A DNA stretch of 63,997 nucleotides, filler included, from Sanchytrium tribonematis (Eukaryota), in assembly GCA_018985235.1 (NCBI GenBank). It is 10 parts of 10 records of this genome, joined end to end, with 100 filler letters (N's around TTAATTAATTAA, not from the genome) between each part and the next. Parts side by side here need not be neighbours in the genome. Positions count along the whole stretch, not along the records: positions 33,852 to 38,192 come from JADGIG010000734.1; 9 more parts are not named here. One strand, written 5' to 3'. Below the pieces are notes generated by a model, which saw only the letters and a list, made by a program, of their open reading frames with translations, was not told where the DNA came from and made no database searches. This document shows positions 24,858-60,421 of the stretch, one piece after another. Each line of letters begins with the position of its first letter. Positions within the stretch are counted from its first letter, which is position 1. The translations under genes were made by a program, and so were the position numbers.

Positions 24858-24957
24858 NNNNNNNNNNNNNNNNNNNNNNNNNNNNNNNNNNNNNNNNNNN
24901 NTTAATTAATTAANNNNNNNNNNNNNNNNNNNNNNNNNNNNNNNNNNNNNNNNNNNN
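24858..24957. other. Artificial contig spacer; same at 29308-29407, 33752-33851, 38193-38292, 42628-42727, 47063-47162, 51494-51593, 55918-56017, 60322-60421
   Basis: Identical 100-nt N44-TTAATTAATTAA-N44 linker with stops in all six frames. Confidence 0.98.
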
Positions 24958-29199: not shown

Positions 29200-29407
29200 T
29201 TTAAAAAGGAGACATTTGTGATTTTTAAATGGACGTGTGCGTATCTGCTGATTGGTAAAAACTATATAAAAACATCATTTATTGATTTCATGATTTAATC
29301 TTGTTTCNNNNNNNNNNNNNNNNNNNNNNNNNNNNNNNNNNNNNNNNNNNNTTAATTAATTAANNNNNNNNNNNNNNNNNNNNNNNNNNNNNNNNNNNNN
29401 NNNNNNN

Positions 29408-30457
29408 CGAAATCAAATCCTTTTGAAAAGCGCTATTGAGTCTGTAAAACAGAACCCAGAAGCTGATTTAAATCAGCTGTTCAAAGCTATTCCGAAACTA
29501 GAACAGGATTTGCCGAAATTTCAGAAAAGTCAATATGCTGAAGAATTGCAGCGGGTGTACGATTTGATTCAAAAAGACTATTTGCAATTAAAAAAGAAAG
29601 AAGAGGCAGATTTGTCTGTTGATAAAGTGTGTCATGAAGGCTTTAGTACAACTAGAGTTAATGTGAAAAAACAGCAAAAATCAAAATCACCTCCTGAAAA
29701 CCCTGAGGACAGCTTCACTGCCTCAAGTGATAAGAAATTTGTAACCGTCAATCAACCGGGTCTATTCATCGTTCCTGATTCTCTTAAAAATAATCGAACA
29801 CTCTTACAATTTGTTGGATTAAAAAATATTGAAGAAATTTACAATTTTATTCAAAGTAATCCGGAGATCGTAGATTCTAAAAACCAAGAAACCCTTCTTT
29901 CTGCGGCTTTTGAATATGCGTTCGCCTATGGTGAAAAATTAAAAGCTTCAGGTGTTAAAAATCCAAATGTCGAAAAAGATGAGTTGTTTATAGGAGGTTT
30001 ACGTAAAATAGTTTTTAATGCTACTTTTATACAATACAGTTTGCAAGCAGATCCTAGGCTATTATATCAAAAGTTCTCTACTATTCCAGCAGCCCTGGAA
30101 AATTTTGAGATGGAGGTCAAAACAACTGTAAATCATGTCATTTCAAGACTTTTGGCCAAGTTAAACCAACCTGAGGACGGCCATTTCTTTGATCTTTCTC
30201 CAAGTTCTGAAAAATCTGAAGTTTTAAAGGCTTGTCCAGTCGATCTTAAGAGCGCAATCTTGCGTGAGGATATCGACAGCTTTCAAAAGATTCTTGATGG
30301 TCTTGGTGAAAGTGAAAGCAGCAAATGGATATCCGAATTTGCCCGAGTCAAGATAATCGAGTTAGTTGCTGTCGATGAAAATGGACAAGAGATTGCAAAC
30401 GAAGAAGACTCAGAACACAAACAGGTAGATTCAGACTCCAATTCACCTACTCAATAA
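29408..30457 (+). CDS. CDC37: Hsp90 co-chaperone Cdc37-like, 5' truncated
   Basis: CHEGFSTTRVN motif, helical middle domain, PVDLKSAI C-terminal domain, acidic tail. Confidence 0.65.
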   Translation, partial: RNQILLKSAIESVKQNPEADLNQLFKAIPKLEQDLPKFQKSQYAEELQRVYDLIQKDYLQLKKKEEADLSVDKVCHEGFSTTRVNVKKQQKSKSPPENPEDSFTASSDKKFVTVNQPGLFIVPDSLKNNRTLLQFVGLKNIEEIYNFIQSNPEIVDSKNQETLLSAAFEYAFAYGEKLKASGVKNPNVEKDELFIGGLRKIVFNATFIQYSLQADPRLLYQKFSTIPAALENFEMEVKTTVNHVISRLLAKLNQPEDGHFFDLSPSSEKSEVLKACPVDLKSAILREDIDSFQKILDGLGESESSKWISEFARVKIIELVAVDENGQEIANEEDSEHKQVDSDSNSPTQ

Positions 30458-33751: not shown

Positions 33752-34275
33752 NNNNNNNNNNNNNNNNNNNNNNNNNNNNNNNNNNNNNNNNNNNNTTAAT
33801 TAATTAANNNNNNNNNNNNNNNNNNNNNNNNNNNNNNNNNNNNNNNNNNNNCATAAAGTCCCATAAACAACTGATTTTAGATTTAATAGCTAATTTCCAG
33901 GAAAAAAAGTGTGATTTAAATCCAGTGACAATACAAAGCACTTTATTACCTTTGAGCAACAACATTTACTATCAATTATGCTCTGAAAATGCTTTGAAAA
34001 GAATCTTAGACAACGACACACTATCAAATAATGATATGAGAATGCTGTTCCTTACATACAACATCACCTTTTGTAATAATGTCAACAAAATATAACCATC
34101 CGACAATCAACCGACAAATAAATTAAATTGCAAGACATTTTTATTGGTCATACGACAATTTCTGTACTTGATTGGTCGTTTCATTGGTCAGTTTGCAACA
34201 TATTCTCCAACATATAACATATTCTGCTTCTTATTGGTTGTTGTTTAGATTCTACCCAATGAATTCCCATTTTCC

Positions 34276-35847
34276 ATGAGACAACAAAATCAATTACCAT
34301 TGCGCAGAATCTATCCCAACCAAGTTGTACCATCTAAACAGGATATTTTAGATCATTTACTAGCCAAAACATCAAGGCAAACATACAATACTTATCAAAA
34401 GCAATTTATTCAATATTGTGAAGATATTTTAATCAATCCCTTGGAAGCAGGTACAGACAATATCACGGATTTCTTTTACAAATTATTTATATCAGGGAAG
34501 ACAGCAAGAACAGTGGATCAAGCCAAATCCGGTTTAGTCAATTTTTTCAAATCCCACAATATTCTCCCAAATCCTGCACAAATGTCTTCTGTAAAAGAAT
34601 ACGTGCAATCCAATTTGAAATATACCAAAGTAAACAATATAGACGAGGAGATTGTGGCTTATCCTCTTTCAGTGTACCAATTGGGACTCTTAATCAATAA
34701 TTTATCTGAATCCCATCCATTTATTGGATCAATGTTTAGATTTCTATTTTGTGCTGGATAATTGGGTTGTTTTAGGATAAGTGAAATGATAAATTTAAAA
34801 TGGAAAGACGTAGCAATGAAAAGTGATGAGAATGGGCAATTTATCAGCATTAGACTACATTGGCATAAAAAAGCACAGTTGCAAAAAGAAGTACAAGTAT
34901 ACAACATACCATCAGAAACCAACTACCCTGCACTTGATATTGTCAAATTTTATCAAGATTACATGCAACAAATACGCCAGTTGAATTCAAATGTTCAGGA
35001 TCATGCAAATTTTATACCGGCTTTTAAAATCACCAACAATGGACAACCAGTGGTTGATTGGTATTCCACAGCAACTCAAATCATCCATCCGAAATATTCT
35101 TGAACATTTGGTTAGCATAATTCCGGACATATCCACAGGAATAACACTCCACAGCATGAGGCGGGGAGGCTGTTTTTATCGTGTTTTTGAATCTAATCAC
35201 AAAAGATTCAACTTTCGCGAACTCATGTCGTGGTGCAGATGGCATGACGCAAAGACGTGTTGTCAATATTTAATTACTCATAGCTTTTCCAATCAAATTG
35301 ATCCACGAAATTTATTGAGGGAATCAAATTCAAATATCGTTGGGCAGCAGCATCAGAATAATCCAAATTTGAGTCATCCAATTGCTATGATTATTTAAGT
35401 GATTTATTGGTATCCAAATTGACAGAAAGACAGGTGAATCCCGCATTTCAATCCACAAATAATCCAATAATAATTAATCAACCACAAATGGTACAAGTTC
35501 CAATCCAACCAGCTAATTCATTAGTACGCCAACCACAGCAGCAAACACTCAATACATTTGTGAGACAAGTTACTATTCCAACAGCTGATTCGGCTGAAGA
35601 AGCATGGAAACAGTGGTTTGTTGGTGATGCAAGTAAAGGTTTATTTCAAGGACTAAGCAGAATTAACAAATCAGAATTCAAATTGGAATACAAGAAATAT
35701 TCAGAAAGAAATGTGTTGGCAATGGCATTTGTAAAATATCAATCATTTGAATCATTTGAGTTGGCTTACAGGGGGATACACCAGAACCTATTCAATGACA
35801 CTGAAAGAGGTCAGAAAGCGCAAAAGAGAAAACAGATTGTGAAATAA
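34276..35847 (+). mobile_element. Crypton-like tyrosine recombinase, disrupted (nonsense at 34759-61, at least 3 frameshifts)
   Basis: N-terminal SAM-like domain, GCFRISE (Arg), LHSMRRGG (HxxR), WCRW..QY; C-terminal WKQWFVGD..KGL..KKYSER domain. Confidence 0.8.
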
Positions 35848-35859
35848 TAAATATTTGAT

Positions 35860-36369
35860 TCATTTATTCATTTCGTGAAGACCTGTTAGTGCAACCATTG
35901 CAGCATCCCACTCGTGTTCTGTAGCTAATAGCTCCGTATTTGTGATCTCATTTAGTGCATCATAGGCTTCATAATTTGTTACTGATTTTGGTACTTTTTG
36001 CAAATTGTATTTTGATTTCCAAGCAGATGGCAACACAGCAAATGACCCATATCCTACTGTATAGAAAAAAGTGAAAATTGCTGTTTGCATGGAATTGTTG
36101 TACACGTCATTTGCAATACAATTTGGTCCATGTTTCACGCCCTGTTTCTCAACAAAAGCAGCTTTGATCATTGGATAATGGCATTCCAATTTAATCATAT
36201 AATTCAATAAAGTGTTAGTCATGTAGTCCATTTTATCCCCATTTTCATGGCCTTCAAATGAGTTTAACATGGTTTCATTGCCATTATCTGTCATATCAAT
36301 AATAGAATGCTGAAGAAGAACAACAATAGCACAAGTGTTTTGAGCAGGATCGCATCCGATGATGATCAT
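35860..36369 (-). CDS. RuvC-fold Holliday junction resolvase-like protein
   Basis: IIGCDPA, FVEKQ, PSAWK and HEWDAAMVAL in RuvC/poxvirus A22 order within 169 aa; ORF intact. Confidence 0.75.
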   Translation of the reverse strand: MIIIGCDPAQNTCAIVVLLQHSIIDMTDNGNETMLNSFEGHENGDKMDYMTNTLLNYMIKLECHYPMIKAAFVEKQGVKHGPNCIANDVYNNSMQTAIFTFFYTVGYGSFAVLPSAWKSKYNLQKVPKSVTNYEAYDALNEITNTELLATEHEWDAAMVALTGLHEMNK

Positions 36370-36464
36370 TTATTTATGAAAGCGAAGCTCGAATCTTAAG
36401 TAAAACGGGGAACACAATCATTAGTCGGTTGAACAGATCGTTTCATCTGATTTATCCAAACATA

Positions 36465-37148
36465 ATGTTTGGAAATGTTACAAGATATTCAGACCCTAAA
36501 TACAAATCGAATTTCCAAAGTGGAGTTTTTGCTGTTGATGATTATGCTGATGATTACGCGCAATATAAAGAGAACAGTCCTGTACTTACAAAACACCAGA
36601 CAATTGGTCTTTACGGACTTTTTGTGCCTATCTCCCATCAACAAAATGTTGAATTGAGCGATGAAAATAAGGATTTTTTTGTGATGCATCGCGAATTTAA
36701 TGGAGATAACACTCCAGGCCTATTGATAGGACCAATTCAATTTGTAAATTATCAATGTGTACGACCAAATGTTGACATCTTATTTAATTCAGATAGTAAA
36801 ATTACTTATTTGAAAGCAAATAAAGACATTAAAAATGGAGATGAATTAGTGGCATTCTACGGTGATGATTATTTTGGAGAAAATAATCAGCAATGTCAAT
36901 GTAAGGTTTGTAAAAAACAATTACCAGAATTAGAACCAATATTTAAATCATCAGAAACTTTAAGATTATAAAAAAACTACAACAGTTATTTCCATCCTAA
37001 TAAGAATGTATTAAATGCTTATAAATCTACCTGGAAAGAGATGAGTGATCTAACTTATATCGGATTTCATGAAATGACTTTTTATGCAGAAATTGCCGAA
37101 TTTCTTCATCAGACGAACCAATTGTTGCTTTCAAACTATCAATGCTAA
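36465..37148 (+). pseudogene. SET-domain protein (Set9/Suv4-20-like motifs); TAA at 36969 may be premature
   Basis: GVFA, GPIQFVNYQC..PN, DIKNGDELVAFYGDDYFGENNQQCQCKVC; frame stays open 58 codons past the stop. Confidence 0.7.
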
Positions 37149-37699
37149 GAGAAAATAATTACAGATAAACACCAAACTGAAAATAATGAAAGTAGATTGT
37201 ATATAGAAGATTTAAAAAACAAAATTCATGCCCTTCAACTTGAATTACAATTATTTGACAATAACAATGATTTATTACCAATACAACAAAACTTATTAAA
37301 AAGCTAAGAAGCAAAACATTATTATAAATATTTGACTTATTATTATAAAAAAATCGACTACACCTCCCCATATTCACAAGTTTTAGACCTTTTTATTCAG
37401 TTTCAAAAACTTATAATACATTAAGAAATCATATCTATTTATTTGAGTTTAAAATTGACTTAGAATCATGCAATAATAATCAACTATGCATTTTAGAGCG
37501 AAGAATTGGTAGATTTGTACAAACTTACAATCTACATTAACTAACAATAGGTGTTTACATTTGTCATTGGCATTTGACGACCCCTTCAATAAATAATATT
37601 ATTATTATTATTATCACAAGTTTTAAAAGAATTAAGGGTAGATAAAACAACTATATTTTGGTTTGAATGTCCTGTTCGTGGTAAAATCGATAAAGAAAT

Positions 37700-37915
37700 C
37701 AATATAGATCGATATATTCACTGACTCCAAAAGCTCTATATCTCAGACTAAACAGTATCAAAGTGGCCACGACCACGGACAGATTAAAAATATCGATCTT
37801 CTTATTCAGGGCAAATTGGACAGAGTAATCATGCATTGGGTTAAAGGACACACATCAGAGGGTGATTCTGATTAGGTAACAATTTAGCAGATTATGGTGC
37901 TGCTTATGCTGGGAA
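37700..37915 (+). mobile_element. RNase H remnant (non-LTR or cellular type)
   Basis: IDIFTDSKSSI, HWVKGH and GNNLAD in order, with stops and frameshifts. Confidence 0.65.
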
Positions 37916-37987
37916 TGGTGAGTTTCTAACAACTCACTTATTGAAATTGAAGAGAAATCCAATATTGAACAAATAAAGTGTTTACCC

Positions 37988-38057
37988 ATCCAATTCCCCC
38001 CGGGGGGGAATTGGATTTTTCGACCAAATAACCTGTTCAATTCCCCGGGGAATTGAA
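37988..38057. repeat. Two related GC-core palindromes
   Basis: ATCCAATT-C6-G7-AATTGGAT (37988-38016) and perfect TTCAATTCCCCGGGGAATTGAA (38036-38057). Confidence 0.9.
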
Positions 38058-38460
38058 TAGATTTTAGTAAATATTTTTTGTAACAAACAAATGGCAAACA
38101 AAAAGCAGACACCGTTAAAGACTAAAAGAAAAGCTTTACGTGATCTAGCAATTCAAAGACTATCTTTAAAAGAAATTTCAAGAAAATATAACNNNNNNNN
38201 NNNNNNNNNNNNNNNNNNNNNNNNNNNNNNNNNNNNTTAATTAATTAANNNNNNNNNNNNNNNNNNNNNNNNNNNNNNNNNNNNNNNNNNNNAAATCATA
38301 TTCCTGTTTCATTTGTTCCATTTCCAATCTCAATTTATTTTGACCAATAATAAATCTGTTTAGCAGGAAATAAAGTCACAAAGTCATATTCAAAGATGCT
38401 ATAATCAAAATCGAATAAAAGCGTGCGATACTTTTCAACGCTTCTCCTTTTGACACAAAA

Positions 38461-41400
38461 ATGAGTGAAAAATTTCAAATTACACCAGAATATTTGTTAA
38501 ACACAAATTTATCCATTCATCAACATCAAGATAAGATCTACTATGCTACTACAACACATTTAGTAGAATTATTCAATGAAAATCAAAAAATATTTCCACT
38601 TTCACACATTATTTCCAATATTTCATATTTTGGAGATTTGGTGGGTATTCTATCACAACCAGATGGCAAATTAATTATCTATCAATTGGATACTATGAGA
38701 AAAAGAAGAGTTATTAAAGAAGAACAGGGTGTTTTGGAGGGAATTTTTGTAAATGCATCCCAATATGCCATTATTACGGAAAAGAAACATTTGAGAGTGT
38801 ATTTGTGGGAAAAGACACAATTATTAGTGGATATTGCATTGGATTTGAATGCTCCTTTAAATTTATTCGCTTTCCAGGAGCATCTTTTTGTTCAAAATAT
38901 GGCTGTAAATATGAAAGAAAAGTGCTTACAGCCTGAGAAAGAATTGGATAGCATTATTCAACATAGTCCAATTGGATTATTAACCAATGATGGTATTTTT
39001 ATCGCTCCTTGGCAATTTTTATCTATTAAAGCAGATTTATTGAATTCTATTGGTTGCACTATATTAAATCAATTCTTATTCATTGCATATCCACAATGTA
39101 TTGTTATTTGCGAAAAGAAACAAGATTATATCCCATTAAAACAGATTGATTTCCAATTAGGCCATATTTCTCAAATTATTTCTAAATCAAATGCCATTTT
39201 ATTATCTACCACAAATGGTGGTATTTATGAATTCAATTATGATTCTAACCCGCAAGATATGTTTAAATGTATATTAAATCCAACAATTTCTAATAAAATC
39301 ATCTGTTCAGCAACAGTCCAACGAAAACCATGGATTGTCTTTGCAACTGATAAATCTTTATGTTTATTCAATTATTTGAATAGATCTGTGCAATTTACAA
39401 AGCCATGCTTAGAAACATGCACTTCTTTGGCAATTCATCCTTCTAGTTTGTATTTAATTGCGACTTTTCCAGAAAGAACTACGATTTATGAAATATTGCA
39501 TAATGATTTCTTAGTTTTTAAAGATGTTCAATTAAGATGGTGCAGAAATGTTCAAATTTGTCGTGGTGGTCATTTATTTGCTCTGGTTGTGAATAATTTG
39601 ATCCAGTTATATGATTTCTGGCTCTGTCAACCCATTTGCGTATTTAAAGGACACCAATCTAATATCGTCAATTTGCAATTTGATGACAAGGACATGTTTC
39701 TGTTTTCTACTGGTAATGATGGATCTTTATACACGTGGAATTTAATCACAAAACAACGCGAAAATGATTTGGTATTAAAGGGGTCAACGCCGTTACAGTC
39801 TATCTGGTTAAATGACTCTAACTGCATCGTATTGCAAGTCGATAGAACCTTGAAAGAAGTTGTGAATAATGCAGTGGCTAATTCTATCCATTTACCAGTT
39901 CCCTGTTTAAATATGGCATTTATCAAAACAATTTCTAGTTTTCTAGTCAATGGAAATGACGGCAAGTCGTATATTTACAAATATCCATTCACAAATCAGC
40001 CACCAATGATTTTATCAGGTCATTCTCATCCAATTATTAATTGTCAAATATTATTCAATTCTGGCAAATTTTTGACCATTTGCGACCATTTATTTATGAA
40101 TCTATGGAACATTACTGGAATTGAGTATTTTGAACCCGTCTTTACAGATGAAATTGTAGTTACTAAAGATGAATTGGATGCCCAATATTCTTTATTAGAA
40201 GATTTAAAAACCAAAACAGAAGAGAAGAAAATGGAAATACAATATCAAATTCAAGTCAAGAAATCATTAAATGAAAAAAAAATTAATGATTTGATGAAAC
40301 AACATTCAAAAGAATTGGAAATGTTGCAATATGAACATGATTTAGAAATGAAAACGTGTTTAGAGCAAGAACAAAAGATTAAAGATGAAATTGCAATGGA
40401 AGATGAACTATTTAATAAATCTAAACTGGAAATGGAAACACATTATCAACAATTGTTGAATTATGAATATGAAAAACAAAATAAATTGAGATTGGAAATG
40501 GAACAAATGAAACAGGAATATGATTTACAAGTACAGCACTATGAAAAAGAATGTCAATTGGAAATTCAAAAAGAAACAGACGCATTAAACCAATTAAAAT
40601 CAGAATTGGCACATGAATTTGATGTGAAACAAGCACAATTGGAAATGAAACAATTAGAATTAAATAAAATGGAGCATATTCAAGATGAAGAATTAACAGA
40701 AGCCCAATTAAAATTGAAATTGGAATTTGATGAAAAGAATAAATTGCTAGATGAAGAAAGATTTAAAATTCAAGCAGATTATCAACATGTTTTAAAACAA
40801 TGTGAGCAATTAGAAAAAGAAATTCATTTACAAGATCAAGATATCCATAAATTAGAAAAAGAAGAATCTGACATGGTTGAAGAATTAAAGCAATTACAAG
40901 CAGATTACAATAAACACCAACAAGAATTATCCCAAATTGATGCAGAAATTAATAATAAAGATGATAAAATCAGTGATTTAAAGCAAAAACAACAAGAATT
41001 AGAGAAGTATAAATTTGTAATGGACTATAAATTGCAAGAATTACAAGATCAAGTCACCCCTAAAAAACAAGAAATCCAACAAATTCAAGAAATGATTGAA
41101 AAAGTCAAACAAGATGAAATCAAGAAATCCAATGATATTTCCAATTTAAATCAACAAATTCATGATATTCAAGTCAAAATTAGCTTAGAACAACAAGAAT
41201 TACAAGTTCAACAATCTAAATACCACAAATTAGAATTATTTGAAAAACGCATTTTATTCAAATTCAAACAAATGGCCAATATCACCAATAAAAAAGAAAT
41301 CAAATTGAAATTACATGAATTATCTCATGAATTTGAAATGATTGATGATTTACCAATGCATTTAGTAAGTGAAAATGAAGAACAACTTCTTTTAAAACAA

Positions 41401-42627: not shown

Positions 42628-42727
42628 NNNNNNNNNNNNNNNNNNNNNNNNNNNNNNNNNNNNNNNNNNNNTTAATTAATTAANNNNNNNNNNNNNNNNN
42701 NNNNNNNNNNNNNNNNNNNNNNNNNNN

Positions 42728-47062: not shown

Positions 47063-47885
47063 NNNNNNNNNNNNNNNNNNNNNNNNNNNNNNNNNNNNNN
47101 NNNNNNTTAATTAATTAANNNNNNNNNNNNNNNNNNNNNNNNNNNNNNNNNNNNNNNNNNNNTCTAAGAGGTGATAGAGATGAAGGAATCAATTTATTTC
47201 GTAGTTCACTCTGCATCTTCCTCCATCTCTTCACCCCTAAATGAGAACAGATTAACCAGATATTTTCTTCAGAGCAGACCAGAGTCACTTCAAATAATTG
47301 ACTGTCAATCACTTTAGACATTACACAATTTTCCGTCACTGCAATGCGTCCATTTGAGGTAATTCTTTCAGCGGATTCAAACTGCACTAAATCAATAGAA
47401 ATTGGTAATTAGTCGCTTAAGACATGCTTTAAAGTAGCGAAAGAACTTTTTACGGTTACAGGGACAGTGCAGCTGAATGCTTGACCACTCAAATCGCTGT
47501 AAAGCATCAATGTGATTGCAAACTCTTTAGGTACTTCTAGAGTAGCCATTGGGAAATCAGGGGAGTCTAGGCCAATTGCAGTATTGGCTCTACTTTCAGT
47601 GGAGATGACGGAAGAAATTTCAGTATTTGCAATAATCTTGCGCATGATTTCATTCTTTTTATGTTGCAATTGCTTTCGAAAAGTATTTAAATAAAACCCA
47701 ATCATCAGTGTCGTAACCGGTTAAGGAAGTTAATAATTTACTTAATTTGTTCTTTTATGAACTACCCAAAACCCCAAATACTTGGTAATATAAATTAACA
47801 CCAATAAAGAACATCATTAATATTGCATTAATTAATTAGTTCTGTGTCCAAAATCAACATGACTTTGTGAAATTCTGCCTTTTCT

Positions 47886-50800
47886 TTATTTATTCGTCTT
47901 CTTTGTTTCTTTAGGCTTTTGCCAAGGTATGACTCTACGAATATTTACTCTTTCAAGCAACCCATGTTTAAGGATTGTAATAGTGTTATTTGAATGAACT
48001 TCTTTAACAATAAAGGGCCCATCTTGTTCTGGAGACCATTTGCTATCCAATTCAGGCTGAACTTTACGAATTAAAACCATGTCATCTGCTTTAAAGCTGC
48101 ATTTAATTCGATTTTTGTTCAGTCTCTCTGCATCCTTTTTAACTTGAGCAGGAGTATTTTTTTCAAGAGTTTGAGAATTTAAATAATAAGAAGGCAGTAC
48201 CATGTTTTGGTTAAACAATATATCACTTGGTGACCTGTTAGTAGTTCCATGAACAGTAGCACGTAAAGCAAATGCGATTGCGGGAATTTTATCAAACCAG
48301 TCATCAAGACCAATACATCGAAGTATATTATTGATGGTGCCATGTAATCTTTCACATATAGAATTGGCAGTGGCCGAGTAGGTGGTTGTAAACGAATGAA
48401 ATATTCCAGGTCCTTGATCAGAAAGCACAAAACGAGGACGAGGATAGCGACAAAGCCAATACTCATCAATCACTTTGGCTATTGTCTGAGAAGATTGTTC
48501 CGATAAAGGAATTAATTCAACCCAGCGGCTATGGATATCGATTATAGTGAGTAAATACTTATATTCGATACCATTCTGATCAATGGAAACTGGAAATGGA
48601 CCTTGGAGATCCAAAGCTACTACTTCAAAGCTTGACAGGTTGTTTTGAATTGTAGTAGGAGTGAGATGACCATATTTCTTTGAATTAATTTTGTGTTTTG
48701 CGCATAATAAACACTTGTTACAAAACGTCTTTATATCCTTGAAAATGTTGTGCCAGTAGAATTTGGAAGTAACTATATTTGTCATTCTAGTGATTCCAGG
48801 ATGCATATAGTTTGTGTGCATCCACTCCATTAAGTCGTGTTTCATAGAAAATGGGATGTAAATTTTGTCATTGTGTTGTAACAATACATTTTGGTCTACT
48901 GTTATTACCTTTAAATGTGGCAGAGTCTTCTTTTGTTTGAAACTAAGGATATCTACACTAGCATGTCCTAGTAAAACCTGAATATACAAGTACAAACTGG
49001 GATCCGCTGCTTGTTTCGTTGATATGTATGAGATCGATAATGGAAATTCTTCTATCAAATTGACAGTTTCCTCATTCCGTGAAAGCCAATCTGCAACATG
49101 GTTGTCTAATCCAGCAATTTTTTTAAATGTGGGTCCGTATTCGGATATTTTATTTGCTAGACGCTGCATCATCAAGCCCTTCATTGATTTTAAATGGGTA
49201 ACATTCATGTTATCAGTATATACTATAATTGTTTGTCCATATAAAAGCGAATGCAAATGCTCTAGTAAAGCTGCAATGGCAATTGTTTCTTTTTCGACTA
49301 TTGGGCGGTTTAATGCCGCATTTGATAGTTTTTTTGAATAAAAATGAATTGGCATAGGAATGTTTTCATCATTGTATTGAAAAACACACCCACCAATACC
49401 GTAGTCAGAAGCATCACAGGTTATGTGAAATGTCTTCTTGAAATCAGGATAAACCAATAATGTATTCTGACTAAGAAGGTCAACACATCTATGAAACAAA
49501 GTCTTACAATTTTCATCAAAGTCAAATTGTGCACTTTTTGATACCATTTGGTTTAAAGGAGCAATAATAGACGAAAGATTAGGCAAGAATCTTCGAAAAA
49601 AGTTAATAGCTCCTATAAATCCTCGTAGTTGCTTCTTTGTTTTCGGATATGGTGCTTGACAGATTGCTTGTACCTTTTCTGGGTCTGCTGTGATTCCAGT
49701 GGAATTTAAAACAAATCCTAAGTATTTTATCTCGTGTTTAGCTAATTCGCATTTTGACAGCTTAAGGTGAACATTATTATCTTGAAATATGTTCAATACT
49801 GTTGCAATATGAGTCATATGTTTTTCGTAAGTATCACTTATAATTAGTACATCGTCTATATAGACGAGAACAAATGACAAGTGACCCAAAATTGAGATCA
49901 TAAATTGCTGGAATGCCTCAGGGGCAGAACTGCAACCCATTGGCATTTTAACGAAATAATATGAGCCAAATACCAGTATAAAACCTGTGTATTGCTGACT
50001 CTCTTTGTCGAGCTCTAAGTGGAAGAATCCACTTTTACAATCAACTTTAGAGAACCATTTTCCAGGACCAACACGATACAAAAGATCATCAATGGTTGGA
50101 ATTGGGAAGGGTCTCCTCTCAATTAATAAATTTAAAGTTTTAGAAAAGTCAACAACTAGTCTGGCACCACCATCTTTCTTTGAGACAGTAAAAGCACTGC
50201 TAGTATATGCTGTAGTTCCTTCTTTGATTATGTCATCTCTCAACATTTCTTTGATTTGATTTTTAACATACTCTAGCTGTGCAAAGGTGATGCGAAATGG
50301 TTTTGAACGAAATGGTGTAGGTTTTGTTTTAAAATGAAGTTTGAAAACAAAGTTGGGCACAGTTTCAACAATTGGCTGAAACACCTTGTTGTACATTGTC
50401 AGGATATTATCAAGCTGAATTTTTTCATTTACAAGTAAAACTTCAGAGTAATTATTGTTGTAGTCAAACGAAGATTCATTCATGACAATTCTCTCAATTT
50501 GAAAATCTATTTTAATTCCAAATTTGTTTAACAACTTAGTACCAATAATTAAATCTTGCCCAATTTGGTCACAAACCATTAGATCTATTTCCACATTCAG
50601 AGAAGGAGAAAGTCCTCGTAAATTTAACGTGACTTTTGTTTTACCTTCACAGTTTATTTTTGAGCCAGTAATGCTTTGCGCATTCCAGTTACTAGGGGAA
50701 ATAACTAAGGACAAATAATTTGCTAACGATTTACTAATGATAGATTCGGCACTACCTGTATCTAACAGTGCAGTTGTTTGCCCTTTACCATTTATACCAA

Positions 50801-51493
50801 CTGGTAATTGAGGTCGCCCATCGATTGCGGCTACCTGAGCCTTACGTTTAGGGTGTAACTCGGGATGTAAAATCCAACATTTCTCAGTGCGAGGTTTCTT
50901 TTTCTTGGGAAATCCATTTGGAATTTTATCCTCTTCATTTGAAGTTTCAATTTTTCGTTTTTTATGAAATTGTTTTGATAATAACTTCATGTTATCTTCT
51001 GCTCTCTGAGCTGTTGAAAAGGCCTCTGACAAACTTGAAACATTCTGCAAATTTGCAAACGCTTGTATTTCTCTCAAAAGCCCATCAAGAAATGCGTTCA
51101 TTTGGTCACGTGAACTTAATTTGTCCGCCTCAGATGGAGCAAGAAAATTGCAACACTGAACATTCTGCTTAAATCGATAAAAATAGGATTCAACGGACTC
51201 ATCCACTTGTTGTTTTAATCTTCTGAATTTACCATAGTATTTGCGATGCGCATCAGCGCCTACAAAATGATCTTGTAATTTTACCAATGCATCACTAGCG
51301 GAGGCAAAAGGAGAAAATTCAATGTATGTTTGTAGTGCAATACCTCCAAGAGCTCTTTTTAGTTGTACGCAACCAGTAGATTCGGGATCTTCAGTAGTTG
51401 CTTCATTTTTCCATTTGCAAGTAGCCATATGGCTTTTAAACTCCTTACGAAAATAAACAAAGTTCTCAGAAGGGGTTCCTGAATATTTTTTTC
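47886..51493 (-). mobile_element. Ty3/Gypsy LTR retrotransposon gag-pol, single ORF, 5' truncated
   Basis: LLDTGS protease, YIDD RT, CDASDYGIG RNase H, HHCC + DDE integrase, GPF motif, in PR-RT-RH-IN order. Confidence 0.95.
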
Positions 51494-51593
51494 NNNNNNN
51501 NNNNNNNNNNNNNNNNNNNNNNNNNNNNNNNNNNNNNTTAATTAATTAANNNNNNNNNNNNNNNNNNNNNNNNNNNNNNNNNNNNNNNNNNNN

Positions 51594-55917: not shown

Positions 55918-56017
55918 NNNNNNNNNNNNNNNNNNNNNNNNNNNNNNNNNNNNNNNNNNNNTTAATTAATTAANNNNNNNNNNNNNNNNNNNNNNNNNNN
56001 NNNNNNNNNNNNNNNNN

Positions 56018-59631: not shown

Positions 59632-60421
59632 TTGGTTTCAATTGACACAATAAACTTTATTAGATTTTGATCTCAGAATAAAACAATCATCGAGTTCAGA
59701 CATATGCTTGTCAAATGATCATCAATGATAAAGTACTTACCTTAATTAGAATAATATTTATCAGAGCCAAAAATATCATCGAGTTCAGACTCGTCATCTA
59801 TCGTCCTTTAATTAACTTACTGATTCTATGTTAGTTGGTAAATTCAGATTACACCAATTTTGTCGTCGTTGCTCGGTACCCAGTGCAAATCATCTTAATT
59901 TATAACATACCTTTTATATTGAAATTCAACTCTCCCAGTTGTAAAGATCTAACTCAAATTTCTTTCTGCTTGAATGTAATCTACATTAAAAATATTCATC
60001 AGGCAGCAAAGTGTCCTCAAGGTCAGACGGTAATTCCATTATCATCAATTGATTTTCTTACCTTCGTTAGTTATTCGGTCTGCTATAATCTATCATCATT
60101 TTCAGCGACTCTAGTTGAATCTTCACACCAGAAATAATTACCTTTTAGCTTCAAAGCATTGTTGGCCCCTTTCCATCATCTCTTCACGTGAATTTAACCA
60201 ATAACCCGCTCGTACAATATTTCAAAAAATTTATTCAACCACAAGTCTCGCCACCTTAGCTGCAGTGAACACTTTGTATCCAATGACATCCAAATTTATG
60301 ACCAACTCATCTTTGTTCTTANNNNNNNNNNNNNNNNNNNNNNNNNNNNNNNNNNNNNNNNNNNNTTAATTAATTAANNNNNNNNNNNNNNNNNNNNNNN
60401 NNNNNNNNNNNNNNNNNNNNN

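What the first reader, a model, noticed from the sequence alone, without database searches (positions are those of the whole stretch)
34276..37148. Crypton-like recombinase + RuvC-like resolvase + SET domain as one candidate mobile element
Seen: three tightly packed genes on one contig; YR (+) ends about 12 bp from an intact 169-aa RuvC-fold ORF (-), which is head-to-head (95 bp) with a SET gene (+). Known: Cryptons are eukaryotic DNA transposons using a tyrosine recombinase, YR reactions pass through a Holliday junction, and from memory some oomycete CryptonS elements carry a SET ORF; RuvC/A22 resolvases are typical of bacteria, phages, large DNA viruses and mitochondria (Cce1/Ydc2). I do not know of Cryptons carrying RuvC. 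Inference: an undescribed element in which the resolvase processes junction or concatemer intermediates and SET modifies chromatin, or an endogenised DNA-virus fragment. The YR is decayed while RuvC is intact. Element ends were not identified.
Basis: partly seen in the sequence, partly recalled or inferred. Interest (0 to 1): 0.82.

Follow-up and report, generated by a model that had tools for sequence, protein, structure and literature searches.

The report
Recombinase-resolvase transposon splitting a SET gene
A 2.4-kb stretch carrying a broken tyrosine-recombinase gene and an intact RuvC-type junction-cutting nuclease gene sits inside one copy of a repeated SET-domain gene and is missing from two sister copies, so it is likely a dead Crypton-like jumping gene that carried its own resolvase, a pairing I did not find in print.

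Summary
They lie on a 4341-bp unplaced contig (33852-38192) that is glued to unrelated contigs by N/TTAATTAATTAA linkers. The tyrosine recombinase (YR) is 42-47% identical over its full length to ~490-aa oomycete YRs and carries four disabling lesions. The 169-aa ORF is a RuvC-fold protein (Z 16.2 to Thermus RuvC, D7/E74/H152/D155 conserved, phage resolvase profiles hit). It belongs to a small family of about 175-aa proteins from metagenomes and one Sanchytrium transcriptome. The SET protein is a KMT5/SUV4-20 homologue.

The new result concerns the unit. In contigs of a public DNA run, two diverged sister copies run straight from the upstream ORF into the SET ORF. They skip exactly 34084-36458 (2375 bp), and removing that segment in silico gives 247 open codons. 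So YR plus RuvC form one insertion. It is flanked by a 7/8 direct repeat (AACAWAAT) and has 13-bp sub-terminal inverted repeats. SET is the interrupted target, not cargo.

Best reading: a dead, single-copy Crypton-like transposon with its own phage-type resolvase. Whether the pairing recurs elsewhere could not be tested. Three literature searches found no description of it. The element is a new variant of a known kind, of moderate-to-high interest.

The parts
33852..38192 (.). The contig that holds the finding (4341 bp). It is joined to unrelated contigs by N44-TTAATTAATTAA-N44 linkers.
   Evidence: positions of N runs, contig lengths falling 4350, 4344, 4341 ...
33852..34083 (+). Upstream part of the interrupted SET-family ORF. 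It is open from the contig end and ends '...NITFCNNV'. It is present in about 3-4 diverged copies in run X1.
34084..36458 (+). The 2375-bp inserted unit (YR plus RuvC), likely a Crypton-like transposon. Two sister copies lack it.
   Evidence: joint 34083->36459; loose ends at 34086 and 34091 continue with the sequence that follows 36461 or 36466.
34084..34091 (+). Left flanking direct repeat AACAAAAT
36459..36466 (+). Right flanking direct repeat AACATAAT. It matches the left one at 7 of 8 positions, and the first 4 are identical. It is the same as the target sequence in one sister copy.
34107..34119 (+). Left sub-terminal inverted repeat TCAACCGACAAAT, 23 nt inside the left end
36420..36432 (-). 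Right sub-terminal inverted repeat (12 of 13 complementary to the left one), 26 nt inside the right end
34143..34189 (+). Three exact ATTGGTC motifs within 47 nt upstream of the YR start. They are candidate promoter or protein-binding sites.
   Evidence: 13 matches in the whole 64-kb window, 3 of them here
34276..35842 (+). Tyrosine recombinase pseudogene. It has an N-terminal SAM-like core-binding domain, a catalytic domain (GCFRISE, HWHKK, LHSMRRGG, CRWHD, CCQYL) and a conserved C-terminal domain (IPTA..AWKQWF..KYSER). It carries four lesions.
35860..36369 (-). Intact 169-aa RuvC-type Holliday junction resolvase gene, convergent with the YR
36465..36971 (+). SET-domain (KMT5/SUV4-20-like) part of the interrupted ORF. 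Its TAA stop at 36969-71 reads TAT in most sister copies.

Best explanation
Window 34084-36458 is a 2375-bp insertion, absent from two sister copies of the same SET-domain gene, that holds a broken Crypton-like tyrosine recombinase gene and an intact phage/bacterial-type RuvC gene. It is likely a dead two-gene transposon whose RuvC would have cut the Holliday junction made by the recombinase.

Shown:
- The boundaries of the unit.
- The 7/8 flanking direct repeat AACAWAAT.
- The 13-bp sub-terminal inverted repeats.
- The YR homology and its four lesions.
- The RuvC fold and its conserved D-E-H-D residues.
- SET is outside the unit and is read through in frame once the unit is removed.

Inferred, by analogy with the Crypton model of Goodwin et al. 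as quoted in Kojima & Jurka 2011:
- The element left its donor as a circle.
- The YR bound the sub-terminal repeats and exchanged one pair of strands with an AACAWAAT-like target.
- The resulting four-way junction was completed either by the YR's second exchange or by the element's own RuvC dimer.
- A resolvase of its own would help most where the element core and the target core are not identical. The one mismatch between the two flanking repeats suggests that case, because branch migration and the second YR exchange then stall.

The copy seen here is single and no longer autonomous.
For: (1) Empty sites. In Logan contigs of DNA run X1, one contig (depth 41.8) joins 34083 to 36459. When only the left flank was laid, two different contigs (depths 41.8 and 53.5, with 5 and 8 mismatches to the flank) ran on. 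Their continuations were GTAATGTTTGGAAACGTTACAAGATATACA (27 of 30 letters equal to window 36462-91) and GTTTGGTAACGTT. The window's own form is bridged at the left junction by an 825-nt contig with 0 mismatches (33984-34808, depth 33.7).

(2) Removing 34084-36458 in silico gives 247 codons without a stop, from the contig end through the SET ORF. The 77 upstream codons alone would be open by chance with p 0.002.

(3) Ends. AACAAAAT and AACATAAT flank the unit. A 12/13 inverted repeat lies 23 and 26 nt inside the two ends, centred within 2 nt of the modelled circle junction.

(4) YR. 34 of 523 candidates reached E <= 0.01. The best were 1.4e-71 at 42-47% identity, and 24 of the 34 are named Aphanomyces. 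The alignment is full-length, including the C-terminal domain and the catalytic residues. Only two ORFs lie inside the unit, and there is no RT or DDE gene.

(5) RuvC. The AlphaFold model built with 11 sequences has pLDDT 80. VIA gives Z 16.2, rmsd 2.9 over 151 residues, to T. thermophilus RuvC, and 14.2 to E. coli RuvC. The best Foldseek match is E 3.5e-6, TM 0.65-0.70, also to RuvC. E74, H152 and D155 are invariant and D7 nearly so. Of the 11 family members, 5 hit phrog_1770 'Holliday junction resolvase' (best 3.7e-10) and 4 hit phrog_159. The nearest ESM Atlas clusters are phage proteins of 166-184 aa.

(6) The family is real and conserved. Ten small relatives at 22-41% identity turned up among 1.84 billion representatives, one of them from a Sanchytrium transcriptome.
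Against: - Only one copy of the unit is seen. Depth is about 32 over 34142-36461, the same as the exact-match contigs elsewhere on this contig. Repeated transposition is therefore not shown.
- Run X1 may be the very data the window was assembled from, so it is not independent proof of the filled form.
- No listed contig is shown to bridge the right junction.
- The two empty copies could descend from one ancestral copy.
- Recurrence of YR-RuvC linkage elsewhere was not testable. All six scans for loci of RuvC or YR relatives found nothing.
- No RuvC relative was found among the Aphanomyces proteins that hold the nearest YRs.
- The termini differ from the TATGG typical of CryptonS.
- The 49-nt spacing of the inverted repeats in a circle model is far wider than a classical 6-8-bp YR core.
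- That the RuvC ORF is intact is not significant (p 0.27).
- No activity, dimer or expression data exist.
Confidence: 0.62

Rival explanations
1. The 2375-bp unit is a mobile YR element, but the RuvC gene is a mere passenger with no role in transposition. It could be captured cargo, or a separate earlier insertion near the right end.
For: - Known Cryptons carry unrelated second ORFs such as a C48 peptidase or a DDE transposase, or Fanzor.
- The nearest YR relatives, in Aphanomyces, have no detectable RuvC relative in the protein library.
- Only one copy is seen here.
Against: - A Holliday-junction resolvase is the one nuclease whose substrate is the YR reaction intermediate.
- The two genes are packed tail to tail, 17 nt apart by the YR's true frame, inside a very compact unit.
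- The family keeps its catalytic residues across 22-41% identity.
Confidence: 0.15
2. YR, RuvC and SET are one larger composite element. On this reading the copies without YR-RuvC are internally deleted, non-autonomous derivatives.
For: - The SET region and its flanks are repeated, with summed depth 110-237 against about 32. The SET unit could therefore itself be mobile.
- The two empty copies could stem from one deletion at the AAC microhomology.
Against: - The joined form reads through in frame for 247 codons.
- The SET part is a KMT5/SUV4-20 homologue.
- 13-bp inverted repeats lie symmetrically just inside 34084 and 36458, which marks these points as element ends rather than random deletion points.
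- GC is 0.349 inside against 0.302 on both sides.
Confidence: 0.08
3. The segment is a fragment of an endogenised DNA virus, either a giant virus or a polinton-like virus. Such genomes can hold both a YR integrase and a RuvC-like resolvase.
For: - Phaeovirus endogenous elements encode a YR integrase and an A22-like resolvase (PMC13236599, passages).
- The resolvase looks phage/virus-like by PHROG and ESM Atlas.
Against: - The insertion is only 2375 bp, with defined ends inside an ORF, and it holds no other viral gene.
- The YR aligns end to end with multicopy genomic oomycete YRs.
- The resolvase is structurally nearer to bacterial RuvC (Z 16.2) than to poxvirus A22 (11.3).
- No relative turned up in IMG/VR or in phage records.
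Confidence: 0.05
4. The 169-aa gene is the host's own organellar resolvase (a Cce1/Ydc2 or MOC1 analogue) that merely lies beside a dead transposon.
For: - The host has mitochondria (a Mito_carr protein is in the window).
- Ydc2 and MOC1 appear among the fold matches.
Against: - The gene lies inside the segment that two sister sites lack.
- It has no N-terminal extension, since the catalytic Asp is residue 7.
- It is 169 aa long, whereas the solved Ydc2 chain has 240 residues.
- Z is 10.7 to Ydc2 against 16.2 to bacterial RuvC.
Confidence: 0.03

Closest known systems
CryptonS / Crypton DNA transposons (Goodwin et al. 2003, recalled; Kojima & Jurka 2011, PMC3212892, passages read)
   Same: - A YR is the only recombination enzyme, and there is no RT or DDE gene.
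- Short direct repeats flank the element, and there are no long terminal repeats.
- The C-terminal domain is conserved but is not GCR1_C.
- The nearest YR relatives are in oomycetes.
- Some Cryptons carry a second ORF.
   Different: - The second ORF here is a RuvC resolvase. The passages read name a C48 peptidase, a DDE transposase or Fanzor instead.
- The flanking repeat is AACAWAAT, not TATGG.
- 13-bp sub-terminal inverted repeats are present.
- The host looks fungus-like rather than stramenopile.
- Kinship to Repbase Cryptons could not be tested.
Bacterial and phage RuvC Holliday junction resolvases (T. thermophilus, D. radiodurans and E. coli RuvC; Lactococcus phage bIL67 RuvC)
   Same: - Same fold over the whole length (Z 14-16 bacterial, 12.6 phage).
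- Same D-E-H-D catalytic set.
- Same size, about 160-170 aa.
- Phage HJ-resolvase profiles match at the sequence level.
   Different: - 12-18% identity only.
- Below the Pfam RuvC threshold (1 of 11 members, at E 0.011).
- Encoded in a eukaryotic nuclear contig inside a YR element.
- No RuvA/RuvB partners.
- Activity and dimer are untested.
Fanzor (eukaryotic TnpB) inside Cryptons and other DNA transposons (PMC13565253, passages)
   Same: A nuclease with a RuvC-like active site carried as a second gene by Crypton-type elements.
   Different: Fanzor is a large RNA-guided nuclease with a split RuvC domain. The protein here is a 169-aa stand-alone resolvase-type RuvC. It aligns end to end with junction resolvases, while IscB/Cas12k/TnpB-like chains score lower (Z about 10-11.6) and match only in part.
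Giant-virus pairs of YR integrase and A22-like resolvase (phaeovirus endogenous elements, PMC13236599, passages; poxvirus A22)
   Same: A YR and a RuvC-superfamily resolvase occur in one mobile or integrating genome of a eukaryote.
   Different: Those are genomes of hundreds of kilobases in which the resolvase serves concatemer resolution and the two genes are not a compact pair. Here the two genes fill a 2.4-kb unit. The fold is nearer to bacterial RuvC than to A22.
KMT5B/C (SUV4-20, fungal Set9) histone H4K20 methyltransferases
   Same: The SET ORF matches KMT5B over residues 51-152 at E 6e-14. The match includes the ELxxYG region and the Cys-rich post-SET.
   Different: - It is one member of a repeated, diverged family in this genome.
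- This copy is split by the insertion.
- It ends at a TAA where most sister copies read TAT.
- NHxC is replaced by NYQC (seen in the sequence).

Membership tests
Crypton (YR-only DNA transposon) | Tyrosine recombinase with the catalytic R-H-R-Y residues | tested here: met
   GCFRISE (R), LHSMRRGG (H..R) and CCQYL (Y) align with the relatives. The ORF itself is broken by four lesions.
Crypton (YR-only DNA transposon) | No reverse transcriptase or DDE transposase in the element | tested here: met
   The 2375-bp unit holds only the YR and RuvC ORFs. Pfam finds nothing else.
Crypton (YR-only DNA transposon) | Short terminal direct repeats (4-6 bp), no TIR or LTR | tested here: inconclusive
   Direct repeat AACAAAAT / AACATAAT: 4 bp perfect, 7 of 8 overall. 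However, 13-bp inverted repeats lie 23-26 nt inside the ends.
Crypton (YR-only DNA transposon) | Evidence of mobility: empty sites, several copies | tested here: inconclusive
   Two empty sister sites were found. Only one copy of the unit is present, plus a minor variant of the same locus at depth 9.4.
Crypton (YR-only DNA transposon) | Sequence kinship to named Repbase Cryptons | not testable with these tools
   No Repbase sequences were on hand. The relatives found are unnamed or 'hypothetical' Aphanomyces proteins.
CryptonS subgroup | TATGG at the termini | tested here: not met
   No TATGG or CCATA at either end. The only TATGG on the contig is at 37893. The feature is taken from one search, which says it holds for the majority of CryptonS, not all.
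CryptonS subgroup | Conserved C-terminal region that is not GCR1_C | tested here: met
   The C-terminal 'IPTA..AW.QWF..KYSER' block is shared with all aligned relatives. No GCR1_C hit in the window piece or in 12 relatives.
RuvC Holliday junction resolvase | RNase H-like fold with RuvC topology over the whole protein | tested here: met
   Z 16.2, rmsd 2.9 A, 151 of 165 residues aligned to T. thermophilus RuvC. The top 8 entries are all bacterial RuvC. Foldseek E 3.5e-6.
RuvC Holliday junction resolvase | Catalytic acidic/His set (D7, E70, H143, D146 in T. thermophilus; numbering recalled) | tested here: met
   D7 is nearly invariant. E74, H152 and D155 are invariant in 11 sequences. E, H and D align with D. 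radiodurans RuvC in the profile alignment.
RuvC Holliday junction resolvase | Sequence-profile membership | tested here: inconclusive
   Pfam PF02075 matched 1 of 11 members, at E 0.011, below threshold. PHROG HJ-resolvase families matched 5, 4 and 4 of 11 members, best E 3.7e-10.
RuvC Holliday junction resolvase | Homodimer that nicks four-way junctions symmetrically | not tested
   Complex prediction was never run because its queue was full. No bench data exist.
Mitochondrial Cce1/Ydc2 | Host single-copy gene, larger protein with an N-terminal extension | tested here: not met
   The gene lies inside an insertion that sister sites lack. It is 169 aa with the catalytic Asp at residue 7. Z to Ydc2 is 10.7.
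Poxvirus A22 / NCLDV resolvase | Closest fold and profile match to A22 | tested here: inconclusive
   Fowlpox resolvase Z 11.3 and canarypox 10.7, both below bacterial RuvC. No Pox_A22 Pfam hit is listed.
Fanzor / TnpB | Large protein with a split RuvC domain and a zinc finger | tested here: not met
   169 aa. It aligns end to end with resolvases, while IscB/IsrB/Cas12k chains align only in part at Z about 10-11.6.
SET domain, KMT5/SUV4-20 type | SET profile match and KMT5 similarity | tested here: met
   PF00856 scores 24.0 bits against a cut-off of 22.4. KMT5B matches at E 6e-14 over residues 51-152. ESM Atlas SET clusters score 0.94.

The most novel reading that the evidence does not exclude
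A widespread but unrecognised class of eukaryotic tyrosine-recombinase transposons carries its own Holliday-junction resolvase, here a phage-derived RuvC. One enzyme makes the junction and the other cuts it, which frees the element from the need for identical core sequences at the target. The ~175-aa RuvC family found in metagenomes and in Sanchytrium would then mark such elements across early-diverging fungi and protists.
Probability: 0.35. Interest if true: 0.78.

Novelty: new variant of a known kind. Interest (0 to 1): 0.6.

Why it matters
Crypton transposition has never been reconstituted. According to the passages read, the circle-and-recombine model is still only an analogy.

An element that brings its own junction resolvase would say something concrete about the rate-limiting step, namely resolution of the Holliday junction at imperfectly matching targets. 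It would also give a simple two-protein system to test.

The finding documents a phage/bacterial-type RuvC living in a eukaryotic nuclear mobile element. Finally, it corrects the gene model of this contig: the SET gene is a split KMT5-like gene, not cargo.

Tried and rejected
- No whole genome is held for the window, so copy number and other insertions could be judged only from Logan contigs of one run.
- The single-sequence AlphaFold model of the 169-aa protein was useless (pLDDT 34.8). The alignment-based model was used instead.
- A word-based protein search found only the query itself for RuvC and for SET.
- Scans for DNA loci found nothing. RuvC alignment A2: metagenome contigs and viral contigs (one search did not complete). 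YR alignment A4: metagenome contigs and viral contigs. P0009 and P0049: genome contigs. Cross-genome linkage therefore stays untested.
- tblastn of RuvC against phage records gave no match.
- phmmer of RuvC against PDB gave only a weak RuvC hit, with the profile (E 0.079).
- The upstream 77-aa piece has no Pfam or PDB match. Its identity as a KMT5 N-domain is therefore not shown.
- No other copy of any of the three genes lies elsewhere in the 64-kb window.
- TATGG termini were looked for and not found.
- Reading TAA as a sense codon was considered and rejected, because long ORFs of 1029 and 1180 aa are open under the standard code.
- No RNA holder is listed for the contig.
- Complex prediction for a RuvC homodimer was never accepted because its queue was full. 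No result exists.
- Earlier-findings look-ups by place and by sequence found nothing.
- Literature. Crypton + tyrosine recombinase + 'SET domain': 2 reviews on silencing, seen as listing only. Crypton + 'Holliday junction resolvase': 2 papers, neither describing such an element. A five-term search with RuvC: 2 papers, on Fanzor or classification. Crypton + Aphanomyces: 3 irrelevant papers, listing only. YR + HJ resolvase + transposable element + fungi: 5 papers by listing. Three of these had passages read under the other searches, and none of the passages describes such an element.
Full report
**What the window is.** The 63,997-base window is not one stretch of chromosome. From 24,858 onward it is a chain of small contigs of falling length (4350, 4344, 4341, 4335 ...). 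They are joined by identical 100-nt linkers, N44-TTAATTAATTAA-N44 (also seen as repeats). The finding lies on the contig 33852-38192 (4341 bp). Nothing outside these limits is genomic context. No whole genome is held. Other contigs carry a mitochondrial carrier, an RNA polymerase I A49 subunit, a CAP59-type mannosyltransferase and a Ty3-type pol. ORFs of 1029 and 1180 aa are open under the standard code. GC is about 32%. The host is therefore an AT-rich eukaryote with fungus-like genes and the standard genetic code.

The YR:
- It starts at 34276. Its N-terminus matches the SAM-like core-binding domain of integrases (E 7e-7).
- A search with the read-through translation (stops as X, residues 1-275) gave 34 proteins at E <= 0.01 among 523 candidates. 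The best were 1.4e-71 at 42-47% identity, and 24 of the 34 are named Aphanomyces. The rest are unnamed metagenome or Logan proteins.
- Aligned to six of them, the window pieces cover the whole ~490-aa protein. This includes GCFRISE, RLHWHKKA, LHSMRRGG, CRWHD and CCQYL, and a conserved C-terminal block (IPTA..AW.QWF..KYSER).
- The C-terminal block is not GCR1_C by Pfam.
- The gene is broken four times: a TAA at 34760-62 where the relatives have F or Y, a frameshift in the A-run 35078-80, a frameshift between 35362 and 35398, and a frameshift in the G-run 35772-76. After the last one, the true C-terminus (…LKEVRKRKRENRL) ends at a TGA at 35840-42.

**The 169-aa protein.**
- Pfam is silent, but phrog_1770 'Holliday junction resolvase' matches end to end (E 6e-4).
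- Among 1.84 billion representatives there are 11 hits at E <= 1e-3 besides the protein itself. Ten are small proteins, seven of 156-180 aa and three fragments. One is a 3336-aa protein matched by a short repeated stretch, which I set aside.
- Their sources are ENA, JGI, Logan and NCBI contigs of 0.7-9.3 kb, plus one EukProt transcriptome protein of Sanchytrium tribonematis.
- The family shares M..IGCDPG, VE.QG and HEWDAAMIA. In the 11-row alignment A2, E74, H152 and D155 are invariant and D7 is nearly so.
- With A2 the AlphaFold model reaches pLDDT 80 and pTM 0.79. The single-sequence model had failed.
- The top Foldseek matches are all RuvC (E 3.5e-6, TM 0.65-0.70). In the viral library the top matches are phage RuvC or HJ resolvases.
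- VIA-align Z-scores: T. thermophilus RuvC 16.2 (rmsd 2.9 A, 151 residues), D. radiodurans 15.2, E. coli 14.2, chloroplast MOC1 about 13, phage bIL67 RuvC 12.6, fowlpox resolvase 11.3, Ydc2 10.7.
- Of the 11 members, 5 hit phrog_1770 (best 3.7e-10), 4 hit phrog_159 and 4 hit phrog_18317. Only 1 of 11 touches Pfam RuvC, at E 0.011.
- The nearest ESM Atlas clusters are phage proteins of 166-184 aa (0.94-0.95).
- A small tree splits the family into two well-supported groups. The window's protein sits with P0002-P0004 and P0006. The Sanchytrium protein falls in the other group.
- The protein is therefore a stand-alone, phage/bacterial-type RuvC with its active site in place. It is not a Ydc2/Cce1 orthologue and not a Fanzor.

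**The SET protein.** Pfam SET passes its cut-off (24.0 against 22.4 bits). KMT5B/SUV420H1 matches residues 51-152 at E 6e-14, including the Cys-rich post-SET. ESM Atlas agrees.

**Where the unit ends.** This is the key result.
- One public DNA run (coded X1, Logan contigs, 37.6 Mb) holds 88% of the contig's sampled words. It may be the data the window was assembled from.
- When the contigs were laid on the window contig, those that match the window exactly have depth 28-34 all along it. Summed depth is about 32 over 34142-36461 (YR and RuvC), about 100 over 33852-34141, 110-237 over 36462-37766, and 550-690 over 37912-38192.
- The flanks are therefore repeated, in several copies that are 85-94% alike. 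The YR-RuvC part is single.
- One contig (depth 41.8) joins 34083 directly to 36459, skipping 2375 bp.
- With only the left flank laid, two different contigs carried on past the junction. One (depth 41.8, 5 mismatches) continues after 34086 with 30 letters, 27 of which equal window 36462-91. The other (depth 53.5, 8 mismatches) continues after 34091 with GTTTGGTAACGTT, like window 36467-79.
- The window's own form is bridged at the left junction by an 825-nt contig with no mismatch (33984-34808).
- Removing 34084-36458 in a script leaves one open frame of 247 codons, from the contig's first base through the SET ORF.
- GC is 0.349 inside the segment and 0.302 on both sides.
- The SET gene's own stop (TAA at 36969-71) reads TAT in most sister copies (106.6 of 137.6 depth). 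This copy of the SET gene is thus doubly damaged.
- Conclusion: YR and RuvC entered together as one 2375-bp piece into the coding region of a repeated KMT5-like gene. SET is the target.

**Anatomy of the unit.**
- The unit is flanked by AACAAAAT (34084-91) and AACATAAT (36459-66). They agree at 7 of 8 positions, and the first four are identical. The right one equals the sequence at the empty site of one sister copy.
- Just inside the ends lie TCAACCGACAAAT (34107-19) and its 12/13 complement (36420-32). In a circle model made in a script, the pair is centred within 2 nt of the junction, with 49 nt between the arms.
- In the whole window the 13-mer has 4 matches at up to 2 mismatches (2.67 expected). 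The two at the element's ends match at 0 and 1 mismatch, and a third match at 29610, on an unrelated contig, also has 1 mismatch.
- My rough estimate, which is not a tool result, for a 12/13 inverted match between two 90-nt ends is below 0.01.
- Three exact ATTGGTC motifs lie within 47 nt upstream of the YR. There are 13 in the whole 64-kb window.
- The two genes are convergent, 17 nt apart by the YR's true frame.
- A minor variant contig (depth 9.4 of 36.3) lacks 1 nt at 35081 and 25 nt at 35143. Because the flanking contigs do not gain depth, I read it as a variant of the same locus and not as a second copy.

**Mechanism.**
- Shown: a compact YR-plus-RuvC unit with defined ends, and empty sister sites.
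- Inferred: it is a Crypton-like transposon. In the Crypton model (quoted in PMC3212892) the element excises as a circle and recombines with a short matching target. The YR reaction passes through a Holliday junction.
- I propose that the element's RuvC dimer resolves that junction when the YR's second strand exchange is slow. That is expected when the element and target cores differ, as the single mismatch between the flanking repeats hints.
- Neither dimerisation (complex prediction was never available) nor activity nor expression (no RNA run is listed) could be tested.
- That RuvC is intact while the YR is broken means little (p about 0.27).

**Comparison with what is known.**
- Kojima & Jurka 2011 (passages) describe CryptonS in oomycetes and a diatom. 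These have a conserved non-GCR1_C C-terminus and 5-6-bp direct repeats, mostly TATGG. Some carry a C48 peptidase ORF. 'Resolvase' does not occur in that text, and the 5 hits for 'set' were not shown among the passages read.
- A 2026 review (PMC13565253, passages) lists Fanzor inside Cryptons. That is a different, RNA-guided RuvC-domain nuclease.
- Phaeovirus endogenous elements hold a YR and an A22-like resolvase in very large genomes (PMC13236599, passages).
- My searches found no paper describing a eukaryotic YR transposon with a RuvC or other junction resolvase. Supplements and Repbase were not searched.
- Earlier AI notes of this scan report similar pairings in other genomes: YR with a RuvC-like gene in Rozella, with Yen1/GEN1 in Psilocybe, and with RusA in two others. 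I could not test them, and they count as leads only.

**Open points.** Linkage of this RuvC family with a YR in other genomes was not testable, because all six locus scans came back empty. The Aphanomyces YR relatives have no detectable RuvC relative in the protein library. The right junction is not shown to be bridged by a listed contig. The two empty copies may share one ancestor.

**Verdict.** The best reading is a dead, single-copy Crypton-like transposon carrying a phage-type RuvC resolvase, inserted in a KMT5-like SET gene (confidence about 0.6). It is a new variant of a known kind, with interest 0.6.

Noticed in passing
window 24858-60421 (linkers at 24858-24957, 29308-29407, 33752-33851, 38193-38292, 42628-42727, 47063-47162, 51494-51593, 55918-56017, 60322-60421): The window is a chain of unplaced contigs of falling length, joined by N44-TTAATTAATTAA-N44 linkers. 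Gene neighbourhood across a linker is meaningless.
   Followed up: yes
window 38293-38342 and 40477-40526: The first 50 nt of the next contig are the exact reverse complement of an internal stretch of the same contig, inside the 1029-aa coiled-coil ORF. This is probably an assembly fold-back artefact.
   Followed up: no
window 37912-38192: A high-copy repeat sits at the right end of the contig. Summed depth is 550-690 against about 32, it has a short palindromic piece (37988-38063), and an ORF start reads like a transposase HTH (MANKKQTPLKTKRKALRDLAIQRLSLKEISRKYN). It probably explains why the contig ends there.
   Followed up: partly
window 37708-37872 (+): A short RNase H-like fragment (…HWVKGHTSEGDSD). 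It matches Pfam RNase_H only at E 0.039.
   Followed up: partly
window 33852-34083 and 36459-37766: The KMT5-like SET gene and about 0.8 kb downstream of it are a repeated family of roughly 4-7 diverged copies, 85-94% alike, in run X1. The stop at 36969-71 of this copy reads TAT in most copies, and the frame stays open for 58 more codons.
   Followed up: partly
window 35081 and 35143: A minor variant contig (depth 9.4 of 36.3) lacks 1 nt and 25 nt inside the YR. Contig breaks at about 34808, 35251, 35764 and 35836 suggest further small variation at this locus.
   Followed up: no
window 47886-51428 (-): A 1180-aa Ty3/gypsy-type pol ORF (protease, RT, RNase H, integrase) that is open over its whole length.
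   Followed up: no
protein P0008: A 3336-aa library protein matches residues 22-66 of the RuvC-like protein in 16 separate stretches. This is probably a low-complexity or repeat effect.
   Followed up: no
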